In this document: in pieces, positions 4,564 to 54,183 of the stretch
Numbering within the stretch: position 1 is the stretch's first letter
How the letters are laid out: each line of letters starts with the position of its first letter
DNA from: a virus
DNA: 64,000 nt
Direction: 5' to 3' (one strand)
Virus record (IMG/VR): IMGVR_UViG_3300019487_000028
Location: 2,834-66,833 of that record
The notes under the pieces: model-generated
What the model saw: only the letters and a program-made list of their open reading frames with translations
Database searches by the model: none
What the model was told of the DNA's origin: nothing
Program-made: the position numbers and the translations under genes

Positions 4564-4663
4564 GGCGAGGCGTGGCAAGGCTTGGCGAGGCGTGGCTCGG
4601 CGTGGCAAGGCAAGGGACGTACCCTCGGGGAGTCGGCGCGAGCCGATGATAGACCGAGGGGGT
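4564..4663 (+). ncRNA. GGC-NN array 1 (10 units) plus conserved 3' stem-loop; putative guide RNA
   Basis: NN = GA GT AA TT GA GT TC GT AA AA, then GGGACGTACCCTCGGGGAGTCGGCGCGAGCCGATGATAGACCGAGGG. Confidence 0.8.
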
Positions 4664-4691
4664 TATGGATTTGAGAGAGAGAGAGTATGTG

Positions 4692-5258
4692 ATGAGTAAC
4701 GACTCCAAGAAGTACGCGGTACGGTTCGAGGGCAACAAGCCGATCCTGTTCGACCGGTACGCCGGAGACAACAAGACGAAGCTTCCGGCGCAGGACAAGT
4801 TCTACTTTGGTCCTGACGGCAAGACTCTGGTGATCCCGGCGTTCAACTTGAATTCAATGTTATCCGCAGAGAACACCAAGTCTGTATGCAAGCTCCTGAT
4901 GGGCCGGAGCGGACGACAGGTCGGTCAGGCCCTGGGGTCGAACCTGGAGATCACGCCGGCCGACATCCCGCTGCTGGGGGAGGGCGACAAGCCCCTCGTC
5001 TGGGCCGGGAAGTTCGATGGTCAGTTCGGAGTCCGGCACGACGTAGCCAGAGTAAAGAACGGAGTCCCCGTCCCCAAGGAGCGGCCGTTCGTCAGGCTTC
5101 CGTGGGCGATCGACTTCGAGATCGGCTGGACCAAGCACCCCGACGTCTCCTACGACACACTGAAGAACGTCTTCGAGCTGGCCCAGAAGATCGGCCTGGG
5201 GACGTTCCGGCCATTCTTCGGGACTTTCGTACTGGTCAAATTCAAGGAGATTTCGTAA
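4692..5258 (+). CDS. Stand-alone Cas7/RAMP-like protein (Vipr-like), putative guide-RNA-binding effector
   Basis: RAMP-like beta1 YAVRFEGNKPILF, LVIPAFNL motif and C-terminal Gly-rich loop IGLGTFRPFFGTF; flanked on both sides by GGC-NN arrays. Alternative start at 4665. Confidence 0.7.
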   Translation: MSNDSKKYAVRFEGNKPILFDRYAGDNKTKLPAQDKFYFGPDGKTLVIPAFNLNSMLSAENTKSVCKLLMGRSGRQVGQALGSNLEITPADIPLLGEGDKPLVWAGKFDGQFGVRHDVARVKNGVPVPKERPFVRLPWAIDFEIGWTKHPDVSYDTLKNVFELAQKIGLGTFRPFFGTFVLVKFKEIS

Positions 5259-5262
5259 CCGC

Positions 5263-5302
5263 GGCATTGCGCGGCTTGGCTCGGCGAGGATTGGCAAGGC
5301 AA
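5263..5302 (+). repeat. GGC-NN array 2 (8 units, two degenerate), no conserved tail
   Basis: GGC AT TGC GC GGC TT GGC TC GGC GA GGA TT GGC AA GGC AA, starting 5 nt after the RAMP stop codon. Confidence 0.7.
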
Positions 5303-5316
5303 AGGGAGGTTCGGCT

Positions 5317-5629
5317 ATGAAGTGGGCGGTGTGGGCTGTGGGCAGCGATCTTGTTGACGCAGAACTTGTCTTTCACCCTGGTCAGCAGGGCCAGGAACTC
5401 CGGTAGCTACGCGTGGCACGCGGTGGCGGCGGTCGGCTCCAACGGGGTGTGGATCCTGAGTCAATTTTTCCTAATCGAAAGTATCGTGTCGGCCATGAAG
5501 GCGGCCACGCTCTGGCCTGCCGTCGGGCTCGGTGCGTTCTACACGACCTTCACGGTGCTGGGGTCTCTGCTCGGGCACTACGTGGCCATCCGGTACATCG
5601 AGAAGGGTCGGAGGAAGGTCGGCGCGTGA
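5317..5629 (+). CDS. Small multi-pass membrane protein, apparent +1 frameshift near 5341
   Basis: ATG at 5317 with AGGGAGG RBS reads MKWAVWAV. Removing one G continues as AAILLTQNLSFTLVSRARNSG, with three hydrophobic segments. Confidence 0.55.
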
Positions 5630-5889
5630 AGAAGATCCGGCTGCGGCGCGTGACGGCTCCACACTACGTTGTCGAGGGGATGGTTGAGAGCCGCTCCGCA
5701 CGCCGACTGCTCTCTCAGTGTGGGGATGCCACGGACGCGATCGTAGCTACTCGTAGCGGTAGGCTAGTGGGCTTTGTCCGATGGTTCGACGAAGACGGGG
5801 AGGCGGTCTCTGCCGGAACGTGGGTAGACCCGAAGCTCAGACGCCGGGGTCTGGCGAAGCGCATGTGGCGATGCGCCACGTTGAGTTGA
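5626..5889 (+). CDS. GNAT-family acetyltransferase-like protein (possibly frameshifted into 5975)
   Basis: LVGFV..AGTWVDPKLRRRGLAKRM is GNAT motif A (R/QxxGxA). Confidence 0.6.
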   Translation: MKKIRLRRVTAPHYVVEGMVESRSARRLLSQCGDATDAIVATRSGRLVGFVRWFDEDGEAVSAGTWVDPKLRRRGLAKRMWRCATLS

Positions 5890-6008
5890 TGCAGCTAGTA
5901 ACCTGCACCAAGAGCGGACTCGCACTGGCCACGACCGTGCAAGAGATGCATGTGGGACGGGTGGTTATTTCATGAAACAACTTCGTCCGACAAGACAACC
6001 GGTGAGCA

Positions 6009-6245
6009 TTGAACGACGCTGAAGAAGAGAACCTCCAGGGCTGGGTGGCGATGTGCTCCCGGGGCTACCCCGGGCTGATCCTGGGGAACACCCGGCAGTC
6101 CGTGACCTACCCGGACGGGAACACCGGGACGGCCTGGACCGGGATCCACCTCGACCCGGACATCTTCGGTCAGCCGTGGTCCAGCCGGAACCCGAAGCTG
6201 ATGTACAGGGCGTACAGTCCGACTCGGGCAGCAGAACGTTTTTGA
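6009..6245 (+). CDS. Hypothetical protein (true start possibly 5972 with a frameshift)
   Basis: Protein-like composition. Confidence 0.45.
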   Translation: MNDAEEENLQGWVAMCSRGYPGLILGNTRQSVTYPDGNTGTAWTGIHLDPDIFGQPWSSRNPKLMYRAYSPTRAAERF

Positions 6246-6276
6246 ACAGGGTGGCAGAACAAGTTTTCGTAACCGC

Positions 6277-6394
6277 GGCAGTGCACGGCGTGGCGAGGCA
6301 CGGCGCGGCGAGGCACGGCACGGCACGGCACGGCAAGGCAAGGGACGTACCCTCGGGGAGTCGGTCCGACGCGGGACTGATTATTGACCGAGGG
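6277..6394 (+). ncRNA. GGC-NN array 3 (13 units) plus variant stem-loop
   Basis: NN = AG AC GT GA AC GC GA AC AC AC AC AA AA; tail CCCTCGG...CCGAGGG. Confidence 0.8.
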
Positions 6395-6422
6395 AAACTA
6401 GGTTCTTGACGGGAGGGATGAG

Positions 6423-6719
6423 TTGAATTTCGAATCACCGGAAGAACATCGTGAATCAATCGTCGAAGAGTTCTCGGCAGCGTATCGGGAAAAATACAAC
6501 CGGGGTCAGGCCGAGCACGGCGGGAACTTATGGCGAAAAGACAACCTGAGCTTCGCCAAAGAAGAAGTCCTCGATTTCGCCAGCTACGTTTTCACCGCAG
6601 ACTGGCAGCGCCGTAAGGCCCTGCGGCTACTGGAGCTCGCGGTCCAGTCGCCGGAGACCTTGCAGTACGTCTACGAGGCGATGTCGGTCCTGAGGGGCGA
6701 GTCTGGCCTGGGGACATGA
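6423..6719 (+). CDS. Hypothetical protein, possible MazG-like nucleotide pyrophosphatase fold
   Basis: KY..GQAEHGG..AKEEVLDFASYV acidic helical motif. Confidence 0.4.
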   Translation: MNFESPEEHRESIVEEFSAAYREKYNRGQAEHGGNLWRKDNLSFAKEEVLDFASYVFTADWQRRKALRLLELAVQSPETLQYVYEAMSVLRGESGLGT

Positions 6720-7261
6720 GCCGGAAACGGGCCGGGATCGACCTCGACGGGGTCTGCTACGACTGGGATTCTTCCGCGAAGTTCCTGCTGTCGCACAGCT
6801 TCGGCTACTCCCTCGACGTGACCACGAGGTGGAACCACATAAAGGACTCCGTACACGCGGTCCACTGGGAGTGGCTGTGGACTGAGGGCGTGAAGCTCGG
6901 ACTCTTCCGCCACGGGAACCTCTACCGGGGGAGCATCGAGGCGCTGCGGACGCTGGACAGGAAGGGCCACAACTTGGTCATTATCACGACCAGGCCGGAC
7001 TCGGCCAGGGTCGACACCCTGGACTGGCTGTCATACCACAAGATCCCGGCGAAGGAAGTCCACGTCCTAGGCCAGGGTGCCAACAAGGCCAACGTCGAGT
7101 GCGACTGGTACGTCGACGACATGCCGAACAACGTCTCGGACATCTGCGCCGCCGGGAAGACCGCCTACCTCTTCGACCGTTCCTGGAACCGAGAATGCCG
7201 CGACGGGGTCCGGGTCGCGTCCTGGGCCGAACTCCTCTACCACCACGGGATAGTCTTCTAG
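6716..7261 (+). CDS. HAD-superfamily 5'(3')-deoxyribonucleotidase (NT5C-like)
   Basis: GIDLDGV (DxD), IITTR and YVDDMP motifs. Confidence 0.85.
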   Translation: MSRKRAGIDLDGVCYDWDSSAKFLLSHSFGYSLDVTTRWNHIKDSVHAVHWEWLWTEGVKLGLFRHGNLYRGSIEALRTLDRKGHNLVIITTRPDSARVDTLDWLSYHKIPAKEVHVLGQGANKANVECDWYVDDMPNNVSDICAAGKTAYLFDRSWNRECRDGVRVASWAELLYHHGIVF

Positions 7262-7282
7262 AGAGAAGAGTAAACTGGAGGC

Positions 7283-7456
7283 ATGGCCTCCCTCTTCGAC
7301 GAGAGAGTCATGTACCTAATGAGGGGAGACATCGCGCGGGTCGAGCTGTGCCAGAGACTCGTGACGGCGCTGGACGAGATCGAAGACTTGAAAAAGTTGA
7401 TTGACAGCATCTCTCCGGCGGTATATGATCAGCCGTCGTCGGGGGGGCTGAGGTAA
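7283..7456 (+). CDS. Small hypothetical protein
   Basis: GGAGG RBS; 57 aa; the 3' end overlaps tRNA-Trp. Confidence 0.4.
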   Translation: MASLFDERVMYLMRGDIARVELCQRLVTALDEIEDLKKLIDSISPAVYDQPSSGGLR

Positions 7457-7515
7457 CGGCAGCCGGAGGGCCTCCAAATCCCTCAGTCTGGGTTCGACCC
7501 CCAGGTCCCCCGCCA
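7442..7515 (+). tRNA. tRNA-Trp(CCA)
   Basis: Acceptor GGGGGGC/GTCCCCC; loop CTCCAAA; TTCGA T-loop; CCA end. Confidence 0.85.
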
Positions 7516-7536
7516 ACTGGAAAGACTCAATCGCGT

Positions 7537-7650
7537 AGCGAGGCAGAGCCAGGCGGGGCGGGGCGAGGCGTGGCTAGGCGAGGCATGGCCCGGCAAGGCA
7601 AGGGACGTACCTTCGGGGAGTCGGCGCGGCCGATGATAGACCGAGGGGTC
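7537..7650 (+). ncRNA. GGC-NN array 4 (13 units) plus stem-loop
   Basis: NN = GA AG CA GG GG GA GT TA GA AT CC AA AA; directly after tRNA-Trp. Confidence 0.8.
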
Positions 7651-7723
7651 GTGGCTCGGCGGTATTGAATCTGCCGAGAGCCGGCCGGAAGCTGGAGCCG
7701 GCACCAGGCGTGGCCGGGGGACA

Positions 7724-7737
7724 TCTTTGAAAACTGA
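7724..7737 (+). promoter_or_regulatory. rrn-type boxA-like antitermination element
   Basis: TCTTTGAAAACTGA, about 40 nt before the main tRNA run. Confidence 0.5.
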
Positions 7738-7778
7738 GCGAAGAAGAAAAGGCGGCGCTAGTGTGGAGCGCTGCTCAA

Positions 7779-7871
7779 GGGCGTCACGGGACAAAGGAGT
7801 CCCACCTGGCTGTAAACCAGGCGCCCCCTGATGGGGGATCACGGCAGGTTCGATCCCTGCGGCGCCCACCA
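7779..7871 (+). tRNA. tRNA-Tyr(GTA)
   Basis: CCTGG-CTGTAAA-CCAGG; long variable arm; CCA. Confidence 0.9.
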
Positions 7872-7877
7872 ACTAAT

Positions 7878-7952
7878 GCGACGCGGGCCGGGCGGTAAGG
7901 CTCCAGTCTTCCAAACTGGGAACGCGGGGTTCGACTCCCCGGCGTCGCTCCA
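7878..7952 (+). tRNA. tRNA-Gly(TCC)
   Basis: CCAGT-CTTCCAA-ACTGG; U73; CCA. Confidence 0.9.
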
Positions 7953-8047
7953 AGCAGCCCATCCAGCAGGGCTGAGAGGCGCCTGGCCCGGGCCAGGAAC
8001 CGCGCGCAGGTGCGGGCTCGTCCTAGGGCGAGTGCCGCTGGCTACTC

Positions 8048-8122
8048 GCTCTCGTAGGATCAACAGCAGACCGTCGCCTTGGTAAGGCGAAAGTCCGGGG
8101 GCAGGACCCGGTGAGAGCTCCA
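8048..8122 (+). tRNA. tRNA-Thr(GGT)
   Basis: TCGCC-TTGGTAA-GGCGA; atypical T-loop GGCAGGA; CCA. Confidence 0.85.
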
Positions 8123-8127
8123 CTAAA

Positions 8128-8203
8128 CCACCGCAGGTGCTAGCGGCAGCACGTCGCGCTCTTAACGCGAGAGGTCGGGGTTCGAGCCCCCGGCGGTGGA
8201 CCA
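8128..8203 (+). tRNA. tRNA-Lys(CTT)
   Basis: TCGCG-CTCTTAA-CGCGA; CCA. Confidence 0.9.
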
Positions 8204-8204
8204 T

Positions 8205-8281
8205 CTGCTCGTGGTGGAATGGCAGACACCCTGGTCCGAGAAGCCAGGCTAATAGGGGTTCGAGTCCCCCCGGGCAGACCA
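8205..8281 (+). tRNA. tRNA-Leu(GAG), short variable region
   Basis: CTGGT-CCGAGAA-GCCAG; Leu-type D-loop GGAATGGCAGAC. Confidence 0.85.
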
Positions 8282-8283
8282 TC

Positions 8284-8362
8284 CCCCAGGTACTCCAATC
8301 AGGCAGAGAGCGTCGGCTCAGACCCGGCGAAGGTGGGCGTTCGAGTCGCCCCCTGGGGACCA
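8284..8362 (+). tRNA. tRNA-Leu(CAG), short variable region
   Basis: GTCGG-CTCAGAC-CCGGC; CCA. Confidence 0.85.
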
Positions 8363-8378
8363 AATTCAGAAACGAGAG

Positions 8379-8639
8379 ATGAGAATGGACCCGACGAAGG
8401 ACATGGACCTCGAGAGCCTATACGACGAGTACGTGTACGAGTGTGCATACTGCTGGCTGACCAGGGACAAACACCCGGACAGGGAGTACGCGTCGTACTC
8501 CAGAGACAGGGACATCGTGTCCGCGGCCGCCAGGGAGCACCGCCGCAAGACGGGACACCCGGTCCACGTGTACCTAAAGAAGTGGTTGTACGAGGAGTCG
8601 GGCAGGTCCGACGCCAGAGAAGAGCGGGGCTGTCGCTAG
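8379..8639 (+). CDS. Hypothetical protein, possible zinc-binding
   Basis: CAYC..HRRKTGH pattern. Confidence 0.5.
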   Translation: MRMDPTKDMDLESLYDEYVYECAYCWLTRDKHPDREYASYSRDRDIVSAAAREHRRKTGHPVHVYLKKWLYEESGRSDAREERGCR

Positions 8640-8777
8640 TTAAAAGTCGAGGGCGCTGTACCGGACCCACGGCGCTACACCTTTAAACGGAAGGGCAGGA
8701 GTTAATTGAGACGAACGGCGAGCTGGCCTTCGACTTCCTGGGGCTGTTGGTCCGGCGCTCGCTGTTAACTAAGACGC

Positions 8778-8855
8778 GCGCGGGTGACGGTAACTGGCAA
8801 ACCTCACTGCCTTAGAAGCAGTGGTCTGTGGGTTCGACTCCCACTCCGCGCACCA
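8778..8855 (+). tRNA. tRNA-Leu(TAG), short variable region
   Basis: ACTGC-CTTAGAA-GCAGT; CCA. Confidence 0.9.
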
Positions 8856-8857
8856 CT

Positions 8858-8934
8858 CGCCGCCTAGCCCAGATGGCAGAGGCCCCGTCTTAAACACGGG
8901 TCAAGCGTGGGTTCGACTCCCACGGCGGCGACCA
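8858..8934 (+). tRNA. tRNA-Leu(TAA), short variable region
   Basis: CCCGT-CTTAAAC-ACGGG; CCA. Confidence 0.9.
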
Positions 8935-8936
8935 TA

Positions 8937-9012
8937 CCATCCCTGGCGCAAATGGCAGACGCGCACGGCTCAATCCCGTGAGATCAGGGTTCGAATCCCT
9001 GGGGATGGACCA
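8937..9012 (+). tRNA. tRNA-Leu(CAA), short variable region
   Basis: CACGG-CTCAATC-CCGTG; CCA. Confidence 0.9.
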
Positions 9013-9019
9013 CTCTGGA

Positions 9020-9098
9020 GGGGACGTAGATCCTGCGGGCTAGGATCACTGCGTTGTCAGCGCAGAGGGCGCGGGTTCGAGTCCCGTCGTCCCCGCCA
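9020..9098 (+). tRNA. tRNA-Asp(GTC)
   Basis: CTGCG-TTGTCAG-CGCAG; G73; CCA. Confidence 0.9.
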
Positions 9099-9117
9099 AA
9101 GTGGTACCGACTGTACT

Positions 9118-9192
9118 GGGCGGCTAGTGTTAACGAGAGCACGAGTGGTTTGCACCCACTAGGACGGAGTTTGAATCTCCGGCTGTCCACCA
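9118..9192 (+). tRNA. tRNA-Ala(TGC)
   Basis: AGTGG-TTTGCAC-CCACT; G3.U70 identity pair. Confidence 0.9.
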
Positions 9193-9416
9193 TTTCTTCA
9201 CCGCGGCCGAGCGACCTGGCCGGTGCGGCTCCAAGGCAGGTGCGCAATTCCCGCCAGGAGGCCGCCGCTCCTTTCTCCACTCCTGCGAGGTGGAGGTCGC
9301 GTTCGCAGCCGGACCCGAGACCTGGGCGGAGAGAGCTGCCGCGGGGAGTGAGAAACCCCCAACGCTTACCTGCCGCCGCCTGTCGCAACCGCCGGGTGAG
9401 GGCCCCGGCTTTCTAA

Positions 9417-9490
9417 GCCGCCGTACGCTAATGGAAGGCGACCGTCCTCTCAAGGCGGTGGTCCGAGTTCGATCCTCGGCGGCGGTACCA
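9417..9490 (+). tRNA. tRNA-Glu(CTC)
   Basis: CCGTC-CTCTCAA-GGCGG; CCA. Confidence 0.9.
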
Positions 9491-9492
9491 GA

Positions 9493-9575
9493 CGCGGACG
9501 AGTGGGCACGGACACATAAACCACGTCAGCCTCATAAGCTGAAGATACCGGGTTCGACTCCCGGGTCCGCTCCCA
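9493..9575 (+). tRNA. tRNA-Met(CAT), initiator-like unpaired C1
   Basis: TCAGC-CTCATAA-GCTGA; enlarged D-loop; lacks the GGG/CCC anticodon-stem signature of fMet. Confidence 0.75.
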
Positions 9576-9576
9576 T

Positions 9577-9654
9577 CGCAGGGAAGTTCCTTGGTAGGAA
9601 CGCAGGTCTCATAAGCCTGGCGCTAGTAGGGTTCGAATCCCACCCCTGCGACCA
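9577..9654 (+). tRNA. tRNA-Met/Ile2(CAT)
   Basis: CAGGT-CTCATAA-GCCTG; CCA. Confidence 0.85.
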
Positions 9655-9657
9655 ACG

Positions 9658-9731
9658 AGCCGGTTCGTTCAAAGGAAGGACGGCGGTCCTACAAACCGCT
9701 CATGGGGGTTCGATTCCCTCACCGGCTACCA
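9658..9731 (+). tRNA. tRNA-Val(TAC)
   Basis: GCGGT-CCTACAA-ACCGC; CCA. Confidence 0.85.
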
Positions 9732-9887
9732 CCACAACTCGGTCAGAGAGAAGCCGGCGGGCAGGCCGGAGGCGTCGCGATGCCAAGCGCGGCGTTCTGC
9801 TCGCCGGCTGCTCTGTGGCCGAGACGTCGGGGGTCGACACCCGATTAGCCACGAGGAGCCCGGAGATGGTCAAGCCTCCGGGCCGCT

Positions 9888-9961
9888 GGGTCGCGAGTGT
9901 TGAGGAAGCATGGCAGGTTGTGTCCCTGCCGGGTGGGGTTCGAGTCCCCAGCGACCCTCCA
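9888..9961 (+). tRNA. tRNA-His(GTG)
   Basis: GCAGG-TTGTGTC-CCTGC; CCA. Confidence 0.85.
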
Positions 9962-9962
9962 T

Positions 9963-10036
9963 TGGGGAGAAGTGTTACGGTAGCATCCCGGCGTCGGAAG
10001 CCGGTGGCGAGGGTCCGACTCCCTCCTCTCCAACCA
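9963..10036 (+). tRNA. tRNA-Pro(CGG)
   Basis: CCGGC-GTCGGAA-GCCGG; CCA. Confidence 0.85.
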
Positions 10037-10053
10037 AAATCTCAGTCTGCATC

Positions 10054-10127
10054 CGGGGATTGATGTAACGGAAGCATCCGGCGTTTGGAACGCCGTCGCG
10101 GGAGTTCGACTCTCCTGTCCCCGACCA
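10054..10127 (+). tRNA. tRNA-Pro(TGG)
   Basis: CGGCG-TTTGGAA-CGCCG; CCA. Confidence 0.9.
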
Positions 10128-10128
10128 T

Positions 10129-10203
10129 CGGGCCTTAGCTCAACGGCAGAGCACTCGGCTGGGGGCCGAGGAAATGCGAGTTCGAGTCTCGTGGGCCCGA
10201 CCA
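10129..10203 (+). tRNA. tRNA-Pro(GGG)
   Basis: CTCGG-CTGGGGG-CCGAG; CCA. Confidence 0.9.
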
Positions 10204-10454
10204 ATAACCAACGACGCACTGAGCGGTGGAGCCGTGGCGGGTGGCTCCAGACTGAAAGCTGCGAACACGGGGAGCGCTTTACCAGTCAAAGGGCGCGAGG
10301 ATCCGGACCGCGGCCCCGCCCTGCTTCATTCCTAGGTCAATGAAGTGAGACGACCTCGTGCGGTACGTATGGCCTGCGGGAGTGAGAATCTCCCGGAGGT
10401 GCAGGAATCATTCTCCTGAGTTCTCGGCCAGCGTGTAGAAACCGCACACCTTAC

Positions 10455-10530
10455 TGCGGTGTAGCACAACGGAAGTGCGGTCGGCTCTGAACCGACGTCA
10501 ATGGGGGTTCGACTCCCTCCGCCGCAGCCA
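10455..10530 (+). tRNA. tRNA-Gln(CTG)
   Basis: GTCGG-CTCTGAA-CCGAC; U1-A72; G73. Confidence 0.9.
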
Positions 10531-10533
10531 AAC

Positions 10534-10607
10534 TGGGGGATCATTCAATGGTAGGATGCGCCGCTGTTACCGGCGTCATGGCGGTTCGAGTCCGCCGCCC
10601 CCAGCCA
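10534..10607 (+). tRNA. tRNA-Asn(GTT)
   Basis: CGCCG-CTGTTAC-CGGCG; CCA. Confidence 0.85.
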
Positions 10608-10634
10608 ACTGCCAGAGGTTTTCAATCGTACCGT

Positions 10635-10735
10635 GGCGGGGCGGGGCGCGGCTCGGCGTAGCTCGGCAAGGCGCGGCACGGCAAGGGACGTACCTTCGGG
10701 GAGTCGGCCGCACTCCGATGATAGACCGGGGGGTC
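10635..10735 (+). ncRNA. GGC-NN array 5 (10 units) plus stem-loop
   Basis: NN = GG GG GC TC GT TC AA GC AC AA; between tRNA-Asn and tRNA-Lys. Confidence 0.8.
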
Positions 10736-10745
10736 GGAAATTCGG

Positions 10746-10821
10746 GGGACCGTAGCAAAAGATGGGTTGCGCCCGCCTTTTAAGCGGAACAACGTCGGTT
10801 CGATTCCGACCGGTCCCACCA
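10746..10821 (+). tRNA. tRNA-Lys(TTT)
   Basis: CCCGC-CTTTTAA-GCGGA; CCA. Confidence 0.9.
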
Positions 10822-10829
10822 TACGGATT

Positions 10830-10903
10830 CCACGGATCGTCCAAAGGTAGGACGCGCGGCCGATAACCGCGCAATGTGAGTTCGATTCTCGCTCCGTGGA
10901 CCA
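10830..10903 (+). tRNA. tRNA-Ile(GAT)
   Basis: CGCGG-CCGATAA-CCGCG; CCA. Confidence 0.9.
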
Positions 10904-10906
10904 ACC

Positions 10907-10979
10907 GCCGGTCAGGCCGAGGTGGCCAAACTGCCCCGTAAGCAGCAGGGCGTGGGTTCGACTCCCCGGGCCGGCTCCA
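10907..10979 (+). tRNA. tRNA-Thr(CGT)
   Basis: Loop CCCGTAA; short D-arm; U73; CCA. Confidence 0.7.
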
Positions 10980-10994
10980 CAAAATAGGAGCTAA

Positions 10995-11345
10995 GTGGCG
11001 ATCAGTATCAAAGTCTTTGGTGGCACCGCGTCTTCCGACGAGAAGTCGCTCTGCCTCTCGTGCAAGAGGGCGACGATTATCCGGGGCCAAGCTCTCGACG
11101 AAGAGATCATCGAGTGCGGCGCTCTGTCCGGCGGTGGGGACCGGCTGTCCGGCGGTGGGGACCGGATCAGGTTCAAGGTCACCAGCTGCAACGCTTACAG
11201 AGACAGCGCGCAGCCCTCCCTCCAGGACATGCAGGAGTTGGCGTGGGTCCTGAAGACCGACAACAGGACCAGGACGATCGGGTTCGTCCCGGCAAAGAAG
11301 CTGAGCTCCGCCGAGCGGTATTCCTTGACGGAATATCAGGACTGA
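10995..11345 (+). CDS. Cys-containing hypothetical protein
   Basis: AGGAG RBS; contains an in-frame 21-bp tandem duplication (LSGGGDR x2, 11124-11165). Confidence 0.6.
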   Translation: MAISIKVFGGTASSDEKSLCLSCKRATIIRGQALDEEIIECGALSGGGDRLSGGGDRIRFKVTSCNAYRDSAQPSLQDMQELAWVLKTDNRTRTIGFVPAKKLSSAERYSLTEYQD

Positions 11346-11364
11346 AACGCGAGAGGGGGGAGGA

Positions 11365-11559
11365 ATGAGTAACTGCGAGAGGGCCAACGGGGACACGAGC
11401 TTCATCGGCCGCTTTGGGGGGACGAGCTGTACCTGCCCGGTAGGCTCTCAGGCGCCGGTGTGCCAGTGGTGTGCGGAGGTCATCACCGCTCTTGACGAGA
11501 TCAGACGGCAGGCGTGGAACGAAGGCTGGGACGCGAGAAGGAGGGCCACGAAGTGGTGA
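11365..11559 (+). CDS. Small zinc-binding hypothetical protein
   Basis: GGAGG RBS; CTC..CQWC. Confidence 0.5.
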   Translation: MSNCERANGDTSFIGRFGGTSCTCPVGSQAPVCQWCAEVITALDEIRRQAWNEGWDARRRATKW

Positions 11560-11996
11560 ACGCCCAAGTGACCAAGCAGCAGCTCGACGCCTACCGGAAG
11601 ATGGACGTGTGGGCGATGCTGCTGAGTAGCAGCCCACTCATTTACTTGTGTACCCGAGCCCAGGTACTGTGGTTCGATCGCAAAATTTCGGGTGATGAGT
11701 TCAAGTACGTGCTCGGGGTCGTGGAGAAGGCCCGGCCCACCGAGGCCGAGCAACCCAGAATGGTGCGCTTCTTCACATCTCCCAGTGTGGGCGTCCCGCT
11801 CACCGCGCCGCAAACTGTGGGTCCTCGAACAGATCGCCAAGGCCGGACAGGAGGCGATCCAGAACTGAAGTCCGCAGTGCTCCTCAAGCTAACCCAGTGG
11901 AAGCGCTTCGCTGAAGACGAAGAGGGCCCGGTGCGACACCGGGGGGGGGCACCACTACGGGGGCGCAACGGTATCGACCGGGGCGCTTCGGCGTGA
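11556..11996 (+). CDS. Hypothetical protein
   Basis: GTGA overlap; the 3' end runs into the tmRNA 5' end. Confidence 0.45.
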   Translation: MNAQVTKQQLDAYRKMDVWAMLLSSSPLIYLCTRAQVLWFDRKISGDEFKYVLGVVEKARPTEAEQPRMVRFFTSPSVGVPLTAPQTVGPRTDRQGRTGGDPELKSAVLLKLTQWKRFAEDEEGPVRHRGGAPLRGRNGIDRGASA

Positions 11997-12262
11997 CGTG
12001 CAGGCGGAGGGGCTCCGAGTCTCCCTCCTAAATCTCGACCGGAAACCTCAAGCGCAGACTACGCTCTGCCGCAGGCCGCCTAGGCGGCCTCGTCGCCCAG
12101 GTTCCTCCCTCGCTAGTGCCTGGAGCGGCGTCACGACGGCGAGGACCAGTACCCCAACGCCGTGAAGGGGTGACGCTCACGGCCAACTGACGCACACAAG
12201 CCTGTGCAACTCGTCGCGTCGTTCGTGTCGGGACGCGGGTTCGACTCCCGCCGCCTCCACCA
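11959..12262 (+). ncRNA. ssrA: tmRNA (SsrA)
   Basis: 5' GGGGGCGCAACGGTATCGAC and 3' GCGGGTTCGACTCCCGCCGCCTCCACCA (G3.U pair); tag frame ...ADYALPQAA-TAG with the stop in a hairpin. Confidence 0.9.
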
Positions 12263-12282
12263 CTTCTCAAGGGGGACAAGAC

Positions 12283-12354
12283 GCCACCCGGTCACGGGAC
12301 CGGCGGAGGTTTGTATCTTCAGCCAGCGGGGTTCGACTCCCCGGGGTGGCTCCA
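12283..12354 (+). tRNA. tRNA-Thr(TGT), weak D-arm
   Basis: Acceptor GCCACCC/GGGTGGC; loop TTTGTAT; U73; CCA. Confidence 0.65.
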
Positions 12355-12359
12355 GAAAC

Positions 12360-12433
12360 GGGGTCGTATGCTAACGGTAGGCGGGCTGCCTTTCACGCAG
12401 TTGATGCGGGTTCGACTCCCGCCGACCCCACCA
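12360..12433 (+). tRNA. tRNA-Glu(TTC)
   Basis: GCTGC-CTTTCAC-GCAGT; CCA. Confidence 0.9.
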
Positions 12434-12444
12434 AACAGGAGAGC

Positions 12445-12618
12445 ATGCAGATGGCGTGGGCACACAAGAGGAAGGGAAAGAAGCGCAAGCGCGAACTCCG
12501 CATCGTCCGCGAGCTTCACCGCCGCAGCGGTCCTAAAGCGGGCCACGGGTGGGCCGCCCGCAGGGCTGCCCGAAGAGCCAACGTTTCTGCTTCGAAGCGG
12601 AAGCGCCGGAAGGTCTAG
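12445..12618 (+). CDS. Small very basic protein
   Basis: AGGAG RBS; Arg/Lys-rich. Confidence 0.45.
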   Translation: MQMAWAHKRKGKKRKRELRIVRELHRRSGPKAGHGWAARRAARRANVSASKRKRRKV

Positions 12619-12630
12619 GGACTCTCTCTG

Positions 12631-12813
12631 ATGGGGAAACACGTCACTCGGGCAGACGTTGTGCTGGACCTCTACCACAGGGGCTACTCCGTCACTGAGA
12701 TCGCGAAGGAGTTGTGCTGGAAAGGCCCCCGGTCGGAAATCAGAGCCATAATCGAAGAGTCAGGATCGGATCCGGACGATTCCCCGAGTACCGGCCAGGT
12801 CTCCGAAACCTGA
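12631..12813 (+). CDS. Small HTH-like protein
   Basis: LYHRGYSVTEIAKEL. Confidence 0.5.
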   Translation: MGKHVTRADVVLDLYHRGYSVTEIAKELCWKGPRSEIRAIIEESGSDPDDSPSTGQVSET

Positions 12814-12857
12814 CGCCGTAACTGGAGATGCGGGTTCGAGTCCCGCCTCGGGGTCCA
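12782..12857 (+). tRNA. D-armless tRNA-like RNA, anticodon CCG (Arg)
   Basis: CCCCGAG/CTCGGGG acceptor; only 7 nt before CAGGT-CTCCGAA-ACCTG; 17-nt variable region; full T-arm; CCA. Confidence 0.6.
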
Positions 12858-12860
12858 CAA

Positions 12861-12934
12861 AGCCGCGTGGTCCAACGGAAAGGCGTAGGGCTACGAACCC
12901 TGAGATGGCAGTTCGACTCTGCCCGCGGCTTCCA
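12861..12934 (+). tRNA. tRNA-Arg(ACG)
   Basis: TAGGG-CTACGAA-CCCTG; CCA. Confidence 0.9.
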
Positions 12935-12936
12935 GA

Positions 12937-13011
12937 GCTCCACATTCGCGGCGGACGCGAACCGGTTTCCTAAACCGGCAAAGCGGGGTTCGACTCCCCG
13001 GTGGGGCTCCA
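12937..13011 (+). tRNA. tRNA-Arg(CCT)
   Basis: CCGGT-TTCCTAA-ACCGG; CCA. Confidence 0.9.
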
Positions 13012-13025
13012 TCTTCATCCAACGT

Positions 13026-13136
13026 GGCCCGGCGAGGCGGGGCGCGGCGCGGCCCGGCTGGGCTAGGCGAGGCGCGGCAAGGCAAGGGACGTACCCTCGG
13101 GGAGTCGGCCGCACGCCGATGATAGACCGGGGGGTC
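13026..13136 (+). ncRNA. GGC-NN array 6 (12 units) plus stem-loop
   Basis: NN = CC GA GG GC GC CC TG TA GA GC AA AA; between two tRNA-Arg genes. Confidence 0.8.
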
Positions 13137-13144
13137 GTGACGGA

Positions 13145-13218
13145 GGCCCGCTGGTGGTGGACACCGCCGGCACTTCTAATGCCGGACCATCTCGGTTCGA
13201 CTCCGGGGCGGGCTTCCA
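13145..13218 (+). tRNA. tRNA-Arg(TCT)
   Basis: CGGCA-CTTCTAA-TGCCG; CCA. Confidence 0.85.
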
Positions 13219-13225
13219 GTTTCAT

Positions 13226-13314
13226 CCACGGTGGGAGGACGGTTCTCAGGGCGGCCTATAACCGCTCCCCCAGATCGGGGCCAGAACGGGGTTCGACTCC
13301 CCGACCGTGGTCCA
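13226..13314 (+). tRNA. tRNA with TAT anticodon (Ile) and long variable arm
   Basis: GGCGG-CCTATAA-CCGCT; variable hairpin CCCC-(CAGATC)-GGGG; U73; CCA. Confidence 0.75.
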
Positions 13315-13428
13315 TTGTTTGGGAGGGAGACAAAACGTGGTCGAGTTTGGTTCTGAAGGCTACACCGCAAGGCTGTCTGGATGGCGCTGAAGGATGGGCC
13401 TCCTGCTAGCAGCGGTGGGGAGGTCGGA

Positions 13429-13842
13429 GTGAAGGTGGCAGTAGTAGGTTCGAGGAACTTCAAGTATCTGGACCTCGTGAAGGACTACATCGACTCCCTA
13501 CCGGACAAGACGGTGGTGGTCACGGGAGGGGCTCGCGGAGTCGATGCTGCGGCCGAGGATGCAGCCAGGAAGCGGGGCCTGGAGGTGGTCGTGGTGACTC
13601 CCGACTACTCTTCGTATGGCCACATCGCCACGAAGGTCAGGAACTCGGTCATAGCCAGGATGGCCGACAAGGTGACGGCCTTCTGGGACGGGCTCTCGGG
13701 AGGTACGGCCAACACGCTAGCGTGGGCCGCAGTTTGGGGACGGCCAGTTGAGGTCTTCATGAAACGCAGATGGCGCAACACGCTCCACTCAACATGGGGA
13801 CCGACGGATGCCCGAGGAGTGGGCAGTACGAAGGGGGGTTGA
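13429..13842 (+). CDS. SLOG-family protein (YspA/DUF2493-like)
   Basis: VAVVGSR, VVTGGARGVD, RN and FWDG.SGGTANT motifs. Confidence 0.8.
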   Translation: MKVAVVGSRNFKYLDLVKDYIDSLPDKTVVVTGGARGVDAAAEDAARKRGLEVVVVTPDYSSYGHIATKVRNSVIARMADKVTAFWDGLSGGTANTLAWAAVWGRPVEVFMKRRWRNTLHSTWGPTDARGVGSTKGG

Positions 13843-13844
13843 TA

Positions 13845-14126
13845 ATGAGCAAGGCGAGACAGAAACTCGTTCGTAAAGCCCTGAGGGCAAAAGAGAGCGA
13901 GTGTCGCTCCTGGAGGTACTACGTCGTTGTCGAGGAAGGCGGGCATCCCCTCAACATGGGGATCGACGGATGCCTGTGGAGAGGAATGGGCAGTGAAGCC
14001 TGCTCAAATATGTTTTTCAGTAGCAGGCGCGCCGCCAGTTCGGCCATCACGAGGACGGTGAGGCGGGGCCTCGCCTGGACTCGGGACAACAAGCTCAGGG
14101 TCGTGGAGAAGCTGGAGCGGTTCTGA
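13845..14126 (+). CDS. Hypothetical protein
   Basis: GGGGG RBS followed by ATG. Confidence 0.5.
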   Translation: MSKARQKLVRKALRAKESECRSWRYYVVVEEGGHPLNMGIDGCLWRGMGSEACSNMFFSSRRAASSAITRTVRRGLAWTRDNKLRVVEKLERF

Positions 14127-14133
14127 CCACACT

Positions 14134-14203
14134 GGAGGGTGCGCAGTTGGACAGCGGGTCGCCTGCTAAGCGGTCTAACGGGGTTCGATTCCCCGACCCT
14201 CCG
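14134..14203 (+). tRNA. tRNA-Ser(GCT), no variable arm, CCA not encoded
   Basis: GGAGGGT/ACCCTCC; loop CTGCTAA; 4-nt variable region; G73. Confidence 0.8.
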
Positions 14204-14230
14204 AACCTGAGAAGCTGGAGACAAAAGTAC

Positions 14231-14304
14231 GGAGAGTTTGCTTTGGGACAAGGCTGGGATTCGAATCCCTGGCTAGGCCGGTTCGAATCCGGCACTCTCC
14301 GCCA
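14231..14304 (+). tRNA. tRNA-Ser(CGA), no variable arm
   Basis: GGAGAGT/ACTCTCC; loop TTCGAAT; G73; CCA. Confidence 0.75.
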
Positions 14305-14329
14305 AACTAACGAGGGAGAGAATATAGCC

Positions 14330-14929
14330 ATGACGGAAGAGACTGGGTCCGCACTTAGCTTCAACGAGTTCTCGGGCTTTGAGGAGTTCCCGAAGATCGC
14401 GAGGCTGTCGAGGGAGATCGTCGTAACCGAGAAGATCGACGGGACGAACGCCCAGGTCGCAGTAGATCATGACGGGACCGTCCGGGCCGGGAGCAGGAAC
14501 CGCTGGATCTCCCCCGAGAACGACAACTTCGGCTTCGCCCGGTGGGTCAAGGAAAACGAAGCCTTGCTGCGCGAGACCCTCGGGGTGGGACGACACTACG
14601 GGGAGTGGTTCGGGGCTGGGATCCAGAGAGGCTACGGACTCAAAGAGAAGCGCTTCGCACTATTCAACGTGAGCCGCTGGGCCGACGTCAAGCCCCCGCT
14701 CTACAGCGTGCCGATCCTCTACAGGGGTCCCTTCAGCACGGACGCGATTGACGACGAACTGGCCTGCCTGGCTGAGCTCGGGTCTGAGGCGGCATCCGGG
14801 TTCAAGCCGGCCGAGGGGGTCGTGATCTACCACGTGGCCGGGAACGTCTACTTCAAGAAGACCCTCGTCGGGGACGATTCGCCCAAGTCGGCCCCAGACA
14901 GAGTCCTCCTGGGGGTGACCAAGGCATGA
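14330..14929 (+). CDS. ATP-dependent RNA ligase (Rnl2-like nucleotidyltransferase)
   Basis: Motif I TEKIDGTNA; GEWFG; FALFN; EGVV. Confidence 0.85.
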   Translation: MTEETGSALSFNEFSGFEEFPKIARLSREIVVTEKIDGTNAQVAVDHDGTVRAGSRNRWISPENDNFGFARWVKENEALLRETLGVGRHYGEWFGAGIQRGYGLKEKRFALFNVSRWADVKPPLYSVPILYRGPFSTDAIDDELACLAELGSEAASGFKPAEGVVIYHVAGNVYFKKTLVGDDSPKSAPDRVLLGVTKA

Positions 14930-15186
14930 AGGTCCGGGTCAAGTGCTCTTGCGGCTGGTCCGGAGTCCGCAAGGACAGCCCGTCAGAGTGCTGCTGTTAC
15001 GACGAGTGGGCCGTAGTCTGCACCGGGATGAGTCCTGGCCCCGGCTGCCCGCGCCCGTGGCTGTGCGCACCGTGCCCGAAGTGCGGCCTGAAGCCTTGGC
15101 GACAGAGGACAAGAGCCGAGAAGGCGGAAGATGCCAGAGTGGACGCCTTGCTCGCCCGCGAGCTGGCCACACAAGCCGGAAACTGA
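14926..15186 (+). CDS. Cys-rich zinc-finger hypothetical protein
   Basis: CSCG..CCC..CPKCG; ATGA overlap. Confidence 0.5.
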   Translation: MKVRVKCSCGWSGVRKDSPSECCCYDEWAVVCTGMSPGPGCPRPWLCAPCPKCGLKPWRQRTRAEKAEDARVDALLARELATQAGN

Positions 15187-15235
15187 CGGACGGGACCGAG
15201 AGCCTCTGGGCAGGGTTCGATGATAGAGTGGTGAC

Positions 15236-15748
15236 ATGGCAGAACGTCGGTGGAAAACTCTGGGCGGGGAGCCGGTCCAAGACATAGCACGGTGGGTCCG
15301 CGAGGCGTCCAGCGGTGGTCAGGTGGTCCACGTGGGTACCGACTCGCTACAGACCGGACGCTGGACCCAGTTCGTGACAGTCATAGTGATACATACTCCG
15401 GGCAAGGGGGGGCGCGTTTCTTACTCCAGGGAGGCCGTCACCAGGATCGTCTCGCTCCGAGAGAGGCTGCTGAAGGAAGTCTGGCGCTCGGTCGAGATAG
15501 CGCTGACCCTGGAGGCCGGGCCGAACCCGATGTCGATCCACATCGACGCGTCTCCTGAGGAAAAGAATCTTTCAAGCAAGTACCTCCAAGAGCTTGCGGG
15601 GATGGTCATGGGCAACGGTTTCAAGGCCGTAGTGAAACCAGACGCGTGGGCGGCCAGTCACTCCGCAGACTGGGTCGTCCGACACAAGGGGAAGATTCCG
15701 CGGGACGGTCCGCAAGCCGCTTTGAAGGCGGCGATGGGGGCGCGGTGA
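15236..15748 (+). CDS. RNase H-like YkuK-family protein
   Basis: VHVGTDS, RLLKEVWRS, IHID and KPDAWAASHSAD motifs. Confidence 0.85.
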   Translation: MAERRWKTLGGEPVQDIARWVREASSGGQVVHVGTDSLQTGRWTQFVTVIVIHTPGKGGRVSYSREAVTRIVSLRERLLKEVWRSVEIALTLEAGPNPMSIHIDASPEEKNLSSKYLQELAGMVMGNGFKAVVKPDAWAASHSADWVVRHKGKIPRDGPQAALKAAMGAR

Positions 15749-15781
15749 GCGCCAGGGGTTCGACTCCTCAATCTTCCTCCA
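15690..15781 (+). tRNA. tRNA-Ser(TGA), long variable arm, overlapping the YkuK 3' end
   Basis: GGAAGAT/ATCTTCC; GCCGC-TTTGAAG-GCGGC; CCA. Confidence 0.8.
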
Positions 15782-15785
15782 CCTC

Positions 15786-15874
15786 GGAGGCGAGGCGAAC
15801 GGAAAGCAGCGGCGTTGGAAGCGCCGTGAGGCCCGAAGAGGGCCGTGCGGGTTCGAGTCCCGCCGCCTCCGCCA
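15786..15874 (+). tRNA. tRNA-Ser(GGA), long variable arm
   Basis: CGGCG-TTGGAAG-CGCCG; G73; CCA. Confidence 0.9.
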
Positions 15875-16035
15875 CTCCTACAGAGGCACTTTGTGCTGAC
15901 TGCGGAGGAGTGCCGGTCGTCCGACTGGTGACCATGTCGGCGCTCTGGAGGTCTCCGGCGAAGATTTTGCCGCTCTGCGAAGATTGTGCGTTCGGCACGG
16001 GGGAGTTGATCGTCGTCTAGGATTTCGGAAAATGT

Positions 16036-16141
16036 GGCGCGGCGCGGCGCGGCGCGGCGAGGCGCGGCATGGCCCGGCAAGGCAAGGCAAGGGACGTACC
16101 GCTCGGGGAGTCGGCGCGAGCCGATGATAGACCGAGGGGTC
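16036..16141 (+). ncRNA. GGC-NN array 7 (11 units) plus stem-loop
   Basis: NN = GC GC GC GC GA GC AT CC AA AA AA; just upstream of tRNA-Cys. Confidence 0.8.
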
Positions 16142-16158
16142 GTGGTTGACGGCAGGTG

Positions 16159-16232
16159 GAGCCGGTGGCCGAATGGCGAGGCAAGCGACTGCAAATCGCT
16201 CTATGCGGGTTCGAGTCCCGCCTGGCTCTCCA
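16159..16232 (+). tRNA. tRNA-Cys(GCA)
   Basis: AGCGA-CTGCAAA-TCGCT; U73; CCA. Confidence 0.9.
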
Positions 16233-54049: not shown

Positions 54050-54084
54050 TGTTCACACCAGAGTCAATGTTATTTGATATTCTC

Positions 54085-54182
54085 TCCCAGGTCTATCATC
54101 GGCGTGCGGCCGACTCCCCTGAGGTACGTCCCTTGCCTTGCCGTGCCGTGCCTCGCCGCGCCTCGCCTCGCAGTGCCGCGCC
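54085..54182 (-). ncRNA. GGC-NN array 8 (10 units) plus stem-loop, on the minus strand
   Basis: NN = GC AC GA GA GC GA AC AC AA AA; tail GGGACGTACCTCAGGGGAGTCGGCCGCACGCCGATGATAGACCTGGG. Confidence 0.8.
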
Positions 54183-54183
54183 G

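What the first reader, a model, noticed from the sequence alone, without database searches (positions are those of the whole stretch)
4564..16090. The NN dinucleotides look like a gapped target code, possibly codon positions 1-2 with the wobble base skipped
Seen NN strings (5'-3'): A1 GA GT AA TT GA GT TC GT AA AA; A2 AT GC TT TC GA TT AA AA; A3 AG AC GT GA AC GC GA AC AC AC AC AA AA; A4 GA AG CA GG GG GA GT TA GA AT CC AA AA; A5 GG GG GC TC GT TC AA GC AC AA; A6 CC GA GG GC GC CC TG TA GA GC AA AA; A7 GC GC GC GC GA GC AT CC AA AA AA; A8 GC AC GA GA GC GA AC AC AA AA. All end in AA, which is probably structural; the rest differ, like spacers. Inference: read as NNx codons they give plausible peptide patterns, for example A4 (D/E)(R/S)(H/Q)GG(D/E)VY(D/E)(I/M)P, A6 P(D/E)GAAP(W/C)Y(D/E)A and A1 (D/E)V(N/K)(F/L)(D/E)VSV. 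Such targeting would be immune to synonymous escape. I found no convincing self-target by eye.
Basis: inference. Interest (0 to 1): 0.8.

Follow-up and report, generated by a model that had tools for sequence, protein, structure and literature searches.

The report
Phage VIPR guide RNAs, gapped code

Summary
All eight NN strings are in the sequence as written, and two more arrays lie outside the window.

The arrays are vrRNAs of a VIPR system (bioRxiv 10.64898/2026.04.26.720920 and .720927).
- The 188-aa ORF between arrays A1 and A2 folds as a minimal Cas7-type RAMP.
- Its five best AlphaFold-cluster matches are the five founding Vipr proteins of the discovery paper.
- It aligns with the tested SUSP1 Vipr across the thumb and G-loop.
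- 25 of 26 viral loci that encode relatives carry same-strand GGY-NN arrays next to the gene.
- Nine arrays end in a conserved, covarying hairpin tail.

The papers show experimentally that NN pairs with DNA under a "1-nt skip" rule, and that the skipped base usually falls on the wobble position.

I found no target above chance for this phage. Exact gapped seeds for five guides gave hit counts that fit random expectation. There are no self-targets. NN composition fits codon positions 1-2 best, which is weak support.

Verdict: a new member of a known kind. The same scan found VIPR arrays before on other genomes. The possibly new detail is that four guides sit between tRNA genes.

The parts
4564..4661 (+). 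vrRNA A1: 10 GGC-NN units (4564-4613) plus conserved tail (4614-4661), directly upstream of vipr
4692..5258 (+). vipr gene: 188-aa minimal RAMP (Cas7-like) protein with a G-loop, GLGTFRPFFG
5263..5302 (+). Array A2: 8 units, no tail. It starts 5 nt after the vipr stop and runs into a Shine-Dalgarno-like GGGAGG and an ATG at 5317
   Evidence: same layout in relative L161
6277..6394 (+). vrRNA A3: 13 units (6277-6341) plus tail (6342-6394, longer inner hairpin)
7401..7429 (+). Sigma-70-like promoter (11 of 12 consensus bases) upstream of tRNA-Trp, vrRNA A4 and the tRNA cluster
   Evidence: tRNA positions
7537..7648 (+). vrRNA A4: 13 units (7537-7601) plus tail (7602-7648), 21 nt after tRNA-Trp
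10635..10733 (+). vrRNA A5: 10 units plus tail, between tRNA-Asn (ends 10607) and tRNA-Lys (starts 10746)
13026..13134 (+). vrRNA A6: 12 units plus tail, between tRNA-Arg (ends 13011) and tRNA-Arg (starts 13145)
16036..16139 (+). vrRNA A7: 11 units plus tail, 19 nt before tRNA-Cys (starts 16159)
54084..54182 (-). vrRNA A8: 10 units (54182-54133) plus tail (54132-54084) on the minus strand. A TATAAT box lies about 35 nt upstream. The outer tail stem carries the compensatory change

Best explanation
The arrays are genes for VIPR guide RNAs (vrRNAs), and ORF 4692-5258 is their Vipr protein.

Shown here:
- There are ten arrays of 8-13 GGC-NN units, nine of them with a conserved structured 3' tail.
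- A minimal RAMP-fold protein is encoded between two of the arrays.
- The protein family is almost always found next to such arrays.
- The genome has no CRISPR array and no Cas1 match.

Taken from published work on relatives (type II, phage SUSP1):
- One Vipr protomer binds each unit.
- The thumb and G-loop flip out and hold the GGY bases.
- The two N bases of each unit are presented and pair with double-stranded DNA, in which every third base is skipped.
- This gives a gapped R-loop triplex that blocks transcription of a competing phage, satellite or prophage.
- In coding targets the skipped base is usually the wobble base, so synonymous mutations do not escape.

Inferred for this phage: the same rule applies, the ten guides are aimed at rivals in the cave community the contig comes from, and action is repression rather than cutting, since I found no nuclease partner. 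Four guides sit inside tRNA clusters behind a promoter, so they are probably cut out of a tRNA-vrRNA precursor by tRNA processing enzymes.
For: Array anatomy and NN strings.
Tail: 13 predicted pairs, 3 of them with compensatory changes.
Protein: AF2 model pLDDT 88.5. Foldseek PDB top hits are Csm3/Cmr4. VIA-align Z 12.5, 161 residues, rmsd 3.7 to Csm3. The five best AFDB-cluster hits are X1U2U4, A0A1F4YLN4, A0A0F9A1L0, A0A661D0E2 and A0A2D6XG06, the five founding Vipr entries named in the paper. hhalign to SUSP1 Vipr gives 87.5% probability, E 3.6e-6, with the G-loop aligned.
Association: 25 of 26 viral loci with relatives have same-strand arrays within about 600 bp. 25 of 120 array-bearing loci hit the family by tblastn.
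No self-target above shuffles, as the paper reports. No Cas1 match and no CRISPR array.
NN composition fits codon positions 1-2 best. Own arrays: log-likelihood -241 against -256 to -271. For 266 other arrays: -6351 against -6439 to -6731.
Mechanism from the papers.
Against: - I found no natural target above chance for any of the five guides I could test, so neither the skip length nor the target class is shown for this clade.
- The best hit is A9 on an 83.8-kb phage contig, 22 of 24 variable positions, in frame. About one such seed hit is expected by chance, and the other guides do not converge on that contig.
- NN never uses CT or CG (0 of 86 variable units). That is odd if NN samples sense codons of a GC-rich target.
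- No conserved vap partner was found.
- The sequence link to the tested SUSP1 protein is remote.
- No RNA data exist for this phage.
Confidence: 0.8

Rival explanations
1. The arrays are Vipr-binding RNAs, but some or all do not guide the complex to foreign DNA. They would act as decoys or regulators: sponges for a rival phage's Vipr, or autoregulatory sites. An example is the tail-less A2 in the leader of the next ORF. NN would then be only loosely constrained.
For: A2 lacks the tail and abuts a ribosome-binding site, and a relative has the same layout. The October 2026 paper shows solo vrRNAs used to redirect a rival's VIPR to decoy sites. No target was found here. Several NN strings are low in complexity, for example four GC units in A7 and four AC units in A3.
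Against: Nine arrays carry the full conserved tail and lie in the same genome as vipr. The NN strings all differ from one another, whereas a sponge needs no diversity. Published decoy vrRNAs still work by NN-coded pairing.
Confidence: 0.09
2. It is a VIPR system, but this Vipr clade reads targets with another register (0, 2 or 3 skipped bases) or targets RNA.
For: The skip rule was tested experimentally only for type II. This protein is only remotely similar to SUSP1 Vipr. My skip-1 seeds found nothing above chance.
Against: The paper applied the 1-nt rule to types III and V and found hits of at least 80% in IMG/VR. The thumb and G-loop elements that set the geometry are conserved here. NN composition fits positions 1-2 of codons, as a period-3 reading predicts. 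The one long gapped match in my local pool was at skip 1.
Confidence: 0.07
3. It is not a guide system at all. The GGC triplets with 2-nt spacers would be a binding track for a ring or filament RNA-binding protein, as in TRAP on the trp leader. Alternatively they would be a DNA-level element such as a promoter upstream element or a two-tier G-quadruplex tract.
For: A triplet plus a 2-nt spacer repeated 8-13 times resembles TRAP sites, and (G2N3)n can form G-quadruplexes (both from my own knowledge). The arrays lie in intergenic leaders.
Against: The adjacent protein is a RAMP that groups with the Vipr founders, not a TRAP-like protein. The protein and the arrays co-occur in 25 of 26 loci. The published structures explain the GGY-NN period directly.
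Confidence: 0.03

Closest known systems
VIPR system, type II exemplar of Escherichia phage SUSP1 (KT454805; bioRxiv 10.64898/2026.04.26.720920, 10.64898/2026.04.26.720927, 10.64898/2026.10.15.759431)
   Same: - A small single-RRM RAMP protein of about 190 aa with a thumb and a G-loop.
- Guide RNAs of 9-16 GGY-NN units followed by a conserved structured 3' tail.
- One guide upstream of vipr and others downstream.
- No cas genes and no CRISPR array; phage-encoded; no self-targets.
- A semi-constant last unit before the tail (AT or GT in SUSP1, AA here).
   Different: - Units are GGC throughout here, where SUSP1 uses mostly GGT.
- The tail has a different sequence: a nested hairpin. A pseudoknot was not tested.
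- No vap1-like neighbour.
- The ten guides are spread over about 70 kb instead of sitting in one locus. Four lie between tRNA genes and one on the opposite strand.
- One array has no tail.
- The protein is related to SUSP1 Vipr only at profile level.
- Targets are unknown.
Class 1 CRISPR backbone: Cas7-family RAMPs (Csm3/Cmr4) on crRNA
   Same: The same fold (Z 12.5 to Csm3). One protomer binds per RNA repeat interval, and the thumb breaks the guide-target duplex periodically (from the papers).
   Different: There is no repeat-spacer array, no Cas1/Cas2, Cas5, Cas6 or Cas10, and no second RRM. The guide is read as 2 of every 5 RNA bases against 2 of every 3 DNA bases, rather than 5 of 6 against 5 of 6.
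TRAP binding sites in the Bacillus trp leader (GAG/UAG triplets with 2-3 nt spacers); own knowledge
   Same: A conserved triplet plus a short variable spacer, repeated about 11 times, bound by one protein subunit per repeat.
   Different: In TRAP sites the spacers carry no information and the protein is a ring of a different fold. Here the protein is a RAMP and the spacers are the code. I considered this early and dropped it.
Synthetic polycistronic tRNA-gRNA arrays, and the hammerhead-interspersed vrRNA arrays mentioned in the VIPR paper
   Same: Guides flanked by self-contained processing signals, so that one transcript yields several guides.
   Different: Here natural phage tRNA genes would be the punctuation. 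This is inferred from positions only. The main texts of the two VIPR preprints I searched for 'tRNA' (discovery paper and October 2026 paper) do not mention it.

Membership tests
VIPR system | Vipr protein: a minimal single-RRM RAMP fold with a thumb hairpin and a glycine-rich loop | tested here: met
   AF2 model pLDDT 88.5, with a beta-hairpin at residues 112-134 and G-loop residues 168-177. Z 12.5 to Csm3. Foldseek PDB top hits are all Cas7-type RAMPs.
VIPR system | The protein belongs with the Vipr clade rather than with CRISPR RAMPs | tested here: met
   The five best AFDB-cluster hits are the five founding Vipr accessions of the discovery paper. hhalign to SUSP1 Vipr gives 87.5%, E 3.6e-6. 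I built no phylogeny.
VIPR system | vrRNA: about 9-16 tandem GGY-NN units with conserved GGY and hypervariable NN | tested here: met
   Ten arrays of 8-13 units. 101 of 111 units are perfect GGC. The NN strings all differ.
VIPR system | A conserved structured 3' tail after the repeats | tested here: met
   Nine of ten arrays have it. The consensus fold has compensatory pairs. A pseudoknot was not examined. A2 lacks the tail.
VIPR system | vipr flanked by vrRNA-bearing intergenic regions; no CRISPR array or cas adaptation genes | tested here: met
   A1-vipr-A2 layout. 25 of 26 relatives have adjacent same-strand arrays. No Cas1 match and no CRISPR-like repeats. The contig is about 81% complete.
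VIPR system | An accessory vap gene next to vipr | tested here: inconclusive
   The neighbours have no telling Pfam domain apart from a GNAT fragment and an NT5C nucleotidase. No protein neighbour is conserved across 24 relatives. The paper calls vap 'typical', not universal.
VIPR system | Natural targets that match NN under the 1-nt skip rule (at least 80% of NN) in competing mobile elements | tested here: inconclusive
   Exact gapped seeds for A1, A4, A5, A6 and A9 in the viral, metagenome and genome collections gave counts that fit chance. The best hit is A9, 22 of 24.
VIPR system | No self-targeting by the system's own guides | tested here: met
   Best own-genome matches at skips 0-3 do not exceed shuffled guides.
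VIPR system | vrRNAs are expressed and co-purify with Vipr; programmable DNA binding and repression | not testable with these tools
   Only DNA runs of a cave metagenome hold the sequence.
CRISPR-Cas (class 1) | A repeat-spacer array with adaptation genes and a multi-subunit effector | tested here: not met
   No CRISPR-like array and no Cas1 match. I found a single RAMP gene; not every ORF was scanned.

The most novel reading that the evidence does not exclude
This phage has turned its tRNA cluster into a guide-RNA factory. Four of its ten vrRNAs lie 10-27 nt from flanking tRNA genes, downstream of a near-consensus promoter, so host RNase P and RNase Z would release them from a tRNA-vrRNA precursor. 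This would be a natural counterpart of engineered tRNA-gRNA arrays, and a vrRNA layout that the two VIPR preprints I searched for 'tRNA' do not mention in their main text. Together with the guides scattered at 54 kb, 67 kb and 73 kb, VIPR here would be a genome-wide guide set without a vap partner rather than a compact locus.
Probability: 0.45. Interest if true: 0.5.

Novelty: new member of a known kind. Interest (0 to 1): 0.35.

Why it matters
- A reader working from raw sequence alone independently reached the noncontiguous "read two, skip one" code, which was only published in 2026.
- The locus extends VIPR to an uncultivated, tRNA-rich, GC-rich phage from a cave community, in a Vipr clade far from the tested coliphage system.
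- It gives ten natural guides with a new tail to test whether the 1-nt skip rule is general.
- If the tRNA-flanked guides are processed as proposed, it adds a new maturation route for these RNAs and a compact natural design for multiplexed guide expression.
- It does not change the known mechanism.

Tried and rejected
- The exact 15-mer at the array-tail junction gave only chance hits in viral contigs, so that collection holds no close relative with this tail.
- Rfam finds only tRNAs and a tmRNA in the window.
- Pfam finds nothing for the Vipr ORF.
- Target scans with exact 1-nt-skip seeds:
  - A6, 10 units, viral: 0 hits.
  - A4, 9 units, viral: 0 hits.
  - A9, 9 units, viral: 1 hit.
  - A5, 9 units, viral: 1 hit, in a 40% GC jumbo contig.
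  - A1, 8 units, viral: 14 hits, none continuing into AAxAA.
  - A6, 9 units, metagenomes: 3 hits, none extending.
  - A4, 9 units, genomes: 7 hits, in unrelated taxa on peptide motifs of the form (Q/H)GG(D/E)VY(D/E)(I/M)P.
  - The counts scale by about 16 per added unit, as random matches do. No control scans with other skip lengths could be afforded.
- The other nine guides do not converge on the A9 hit contig.
- Local pool test, 426 arrays against 1.75 Mb: after removing loci fetched by my own skip-1 seeds, the seed hits were 5, 6, 1 and 1 for skips 0-3. That is no clear enrichment.
- I looked for the host through the phage tmRNA against 401 Actinomycetota genomes. Only a generic 30-nt 3' end matched. 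One unpublished genome, G320, was in that sample, and nothing here rests on it.
- Relatives cannot be drawn for a virus record.
- No RNA holder is listed among public runs.
- Complex prediction with three Vipr copies returned no verdict.
- I considered TRAP-like, promoter-element and G-quadruplex readings before the literature search and dropped them.
Full report
**Observation**

The window is part of a 76-kb viral contig from IMG/VR. Two cave-metagenome runs hold it.

A8 is on the minus strand at 54182-54133. Two more arrays lie beyond the window end. Of 111 units, 101 are perfect GGC. Runs of five or more units occur 9 times, against none in 200 shuffles.

Nine arrays continue into an invariant GGGACGTACC and a nested hairpin. 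Its outer stem shows compensatory changes in the minus-strand copy. A2 has no tail and runs into a ribosome-binding site and an ATG at 5317.

**How general the arrays are**

The exact array-tail junction has no true match elsewhere. Hits often have several arrays per contig, placed upstream of genes or tRNAs.

A full-text search then found the explanation: the VIPR preprints of 2026. They describe a phage-encoded minimal RAMP protein, Vipr, and vrRNAs of 9-16 GGY-NN units with a conserved 3' tail. They show the following by database search, binding assays, reporter repression and cryo-EM:
- NN pairs with double-stranded DNA while every third target base is skipped.
- The skipped base mostly falls on the wobble position.
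- Natural targets are competing satellites, prophages and phages.
- Guides do not hit their own contig.

**Membership of this locus**

ORF 4692-5258 lies between A1 and A2.
- It has no Pfam match.
- It has over 140 homologues of about 185 aa, none of them named beyond "hypothetical protein".
- Its AF2 model (pLDDT 88.5) matches Csm3/Cmr4-type RAMPs (Z 12.5, 161 residues, rmsd 3.7).
- The five best AlphaFold-cluster hits are the five accessions the discovery paper names as the first Vipr proteins.

I fetched phage SUSP1 and found its vrRNAs and vipr gene. A profile alignment links the two proteins over the thumb and G-loop at 87.5% probability, E 3.6e-6. There GLGTFRPFFG here lines up with GVGDWRPRFG, the segment whose D, W and R residues hold the GGY bases in the structure.

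In the other direction, 25 of 26 viral loci that encode relatives carry same-strand GGY-NN arrays within about 600 bp, and none on the opposite strand. The genome has no Cas1 match and no CRISPR-like array. I found no conserved accessory (vap) gene.

**Testing the code here**

*Self-targets.* For skips 0-3, the best own-genome matches do not exceed shuffled guides. This agrees with the papers.

*Public collections.* Only exact IUPAC patterns can be scanned, so I used 1-nt-skip seeds of 8-10 units and scored the remaining units afterwards.

| Guide | Seed | Collection | Hits |
|---|---|---|---|
| A1 | 16 bases | viral | 14 |
| A4 | 18 bases | viral | 0 |
| A9 | 18 bases | viral | 1 |
| A5 | 18 bases | viral | 1 |
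| A6 | 20 bases | viral | 0 |
| A6 | 18 bases | metagenome contigs | 3 |
| A4 | 18 bases | genome contigs | 7 |

This is the scaling expected of random matches.

The best hit is A9 on a complete 83.8-kb phage contig. It matches 22 of 24 variable positions, in frame, with NN on codon positions 1-2, near the end of a 347-aa ORF. About one seed hit is expected by chance, and the other nine guides do not converge on that contig. The metagenome and genome scans gave chance-like hits. For A4 these fall in unrelated bacterial ORFs on short peptide motifs of the form (Q/H)GG(D/E)VY(D/E)(I/M)P. So no target is established, and I tested no other skip length against the public collections.

*Indirect support.* NN composition fits the dinucleotide make-up of codon positions 1-2 better than the other two phases:
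- This phage: log-likelihood -241 sense and -246 antisense, against -256 to -271.
- 266 arrays from other phages: -6351 and -6398, against -6439 to -6731.

By my reading of the open-frame lengths, 9 of the 14 A1 hits fall in the wobble-skip frame of the longest ORF. This shows that the strings are codon-like. It is not evidence of targeting.

In a 1.75-Mb pool of fetched loci, seed counts did not separate the skip lengths once loci fetched by my own seeds were removed. The one long match was at skip 1, antisense and in frame: 23 of 24 over 12 units, a guide in L134 against an ORF in L074.

**Mechanism and what is new**

I conclude that these are vrRNAs that Vipr coats one protomer per unit, presenting NN for gapped pairing with rival DNA and silencing it. 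For this phage the rule, the targets and expression are all inferred.

Some features differ from the published main texts:
- Ten guides are spread over about 70 kb.
- Four lie 10-27 nt from flanking tRNA genes, downstream of a near-consensus promoter at 7401-7429. The two VIPR preprints I searched for 'tRNA' (the discovery paper and the October 2026 paper) do not mention it in their main text.
- The tail is of a new sequence.
- One array has no tail.
- The terminal units are invariant AA.

**Verdict**

The reading is supported by membership in a family for which the code has been shown. The kind of system is already known, and this scan has met it before on other genomes. This locus is a new member with a possibly new processing layout.

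Noticed in passing
window 7401-16232: vrRNAs A4-A7 are interleaved with tRNA genes: tRNA-Trp then A4; tRNA-Asn, A5, tRNA-Lys; tRNA-Arg, A6, tRNA-Arg; A7 then tRNA-Cys. A near-consensus promoter lies at 7401-7429. This suggests tRNA-vrRNA precursors cut by tRNA processing enzymes.
   Followed up: partly
window 5263-5319: Array A2 has no tail and runs straight into GGGAGG and an ATG that opens only a 29-codon frame. A 92-aa ORF rich in hydrophobic residues, possibly a membrane protein, starts at 5351 in another frame. Relative L161 also has a tail-less array directly before the next gene's start.
   Followed up: partly
G000:C1:70307-70371 and 75737-75791 (outside the window): Two more full vrRNAs with the same tail. 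Each is followed within about 30-35 nt of the tail by a protein-coding start.
   Followed up: partly
window 4567 and 4672: Between the two cave-metagenome runs, one of only four clean SNPs in 12 kb falls on the first N of the first unit of A1 (G to T). A GAGA insertion lies in the GA-rich stretch before vipr.
   Followed up: no
window 5260-5275, 6274-6290, 54170-54185(-); genome 70300-70320: Arrays A2, A3, A8 and A9 share a 5' leader of the form GCGGCA-N-TGC, so their second or third unit is TGC rather than GGC. The first units may be a conserved leader rather than guide.
   Followed up: no
all ten arrays: NN never uses CT or CG (0 of 86 variable units), and the first N is a purine in about 80% of units. 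Arrays in other phages do use CT and CG.
   Followed up: partly
L134 (minus strand, array from 10261) and L074 (minus strand, about 5615-5675): A guide in one IMG/VR phage matches a repeated NTIQDNTINT-coding stretch of an ORF in another phage: 23 of 24 positions over 12 units at skip 1, antisense and in frame.
   Followed up: partly
window 11959-12262: A phage-encoded tmRNA (Rfam 86 bits) with tag peptide ADYALPQAA sits inside a cluster of 33 tRNA genes.
   Followed up: no
window 57640-58021: A long tract of 15-nt tandem repeats. If it is coding, that is a 5-residue period, as in a pentapeptide-repeat protein.
   Followed up: no
window 7649-7778, 9200-9410, 10205-10450: GC-rich non-coding spacers, hairpin-rich by eye in the sequence, lie between tRNA genes. 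Rfam has no match for them at gathering threshold.
   Followed up: no
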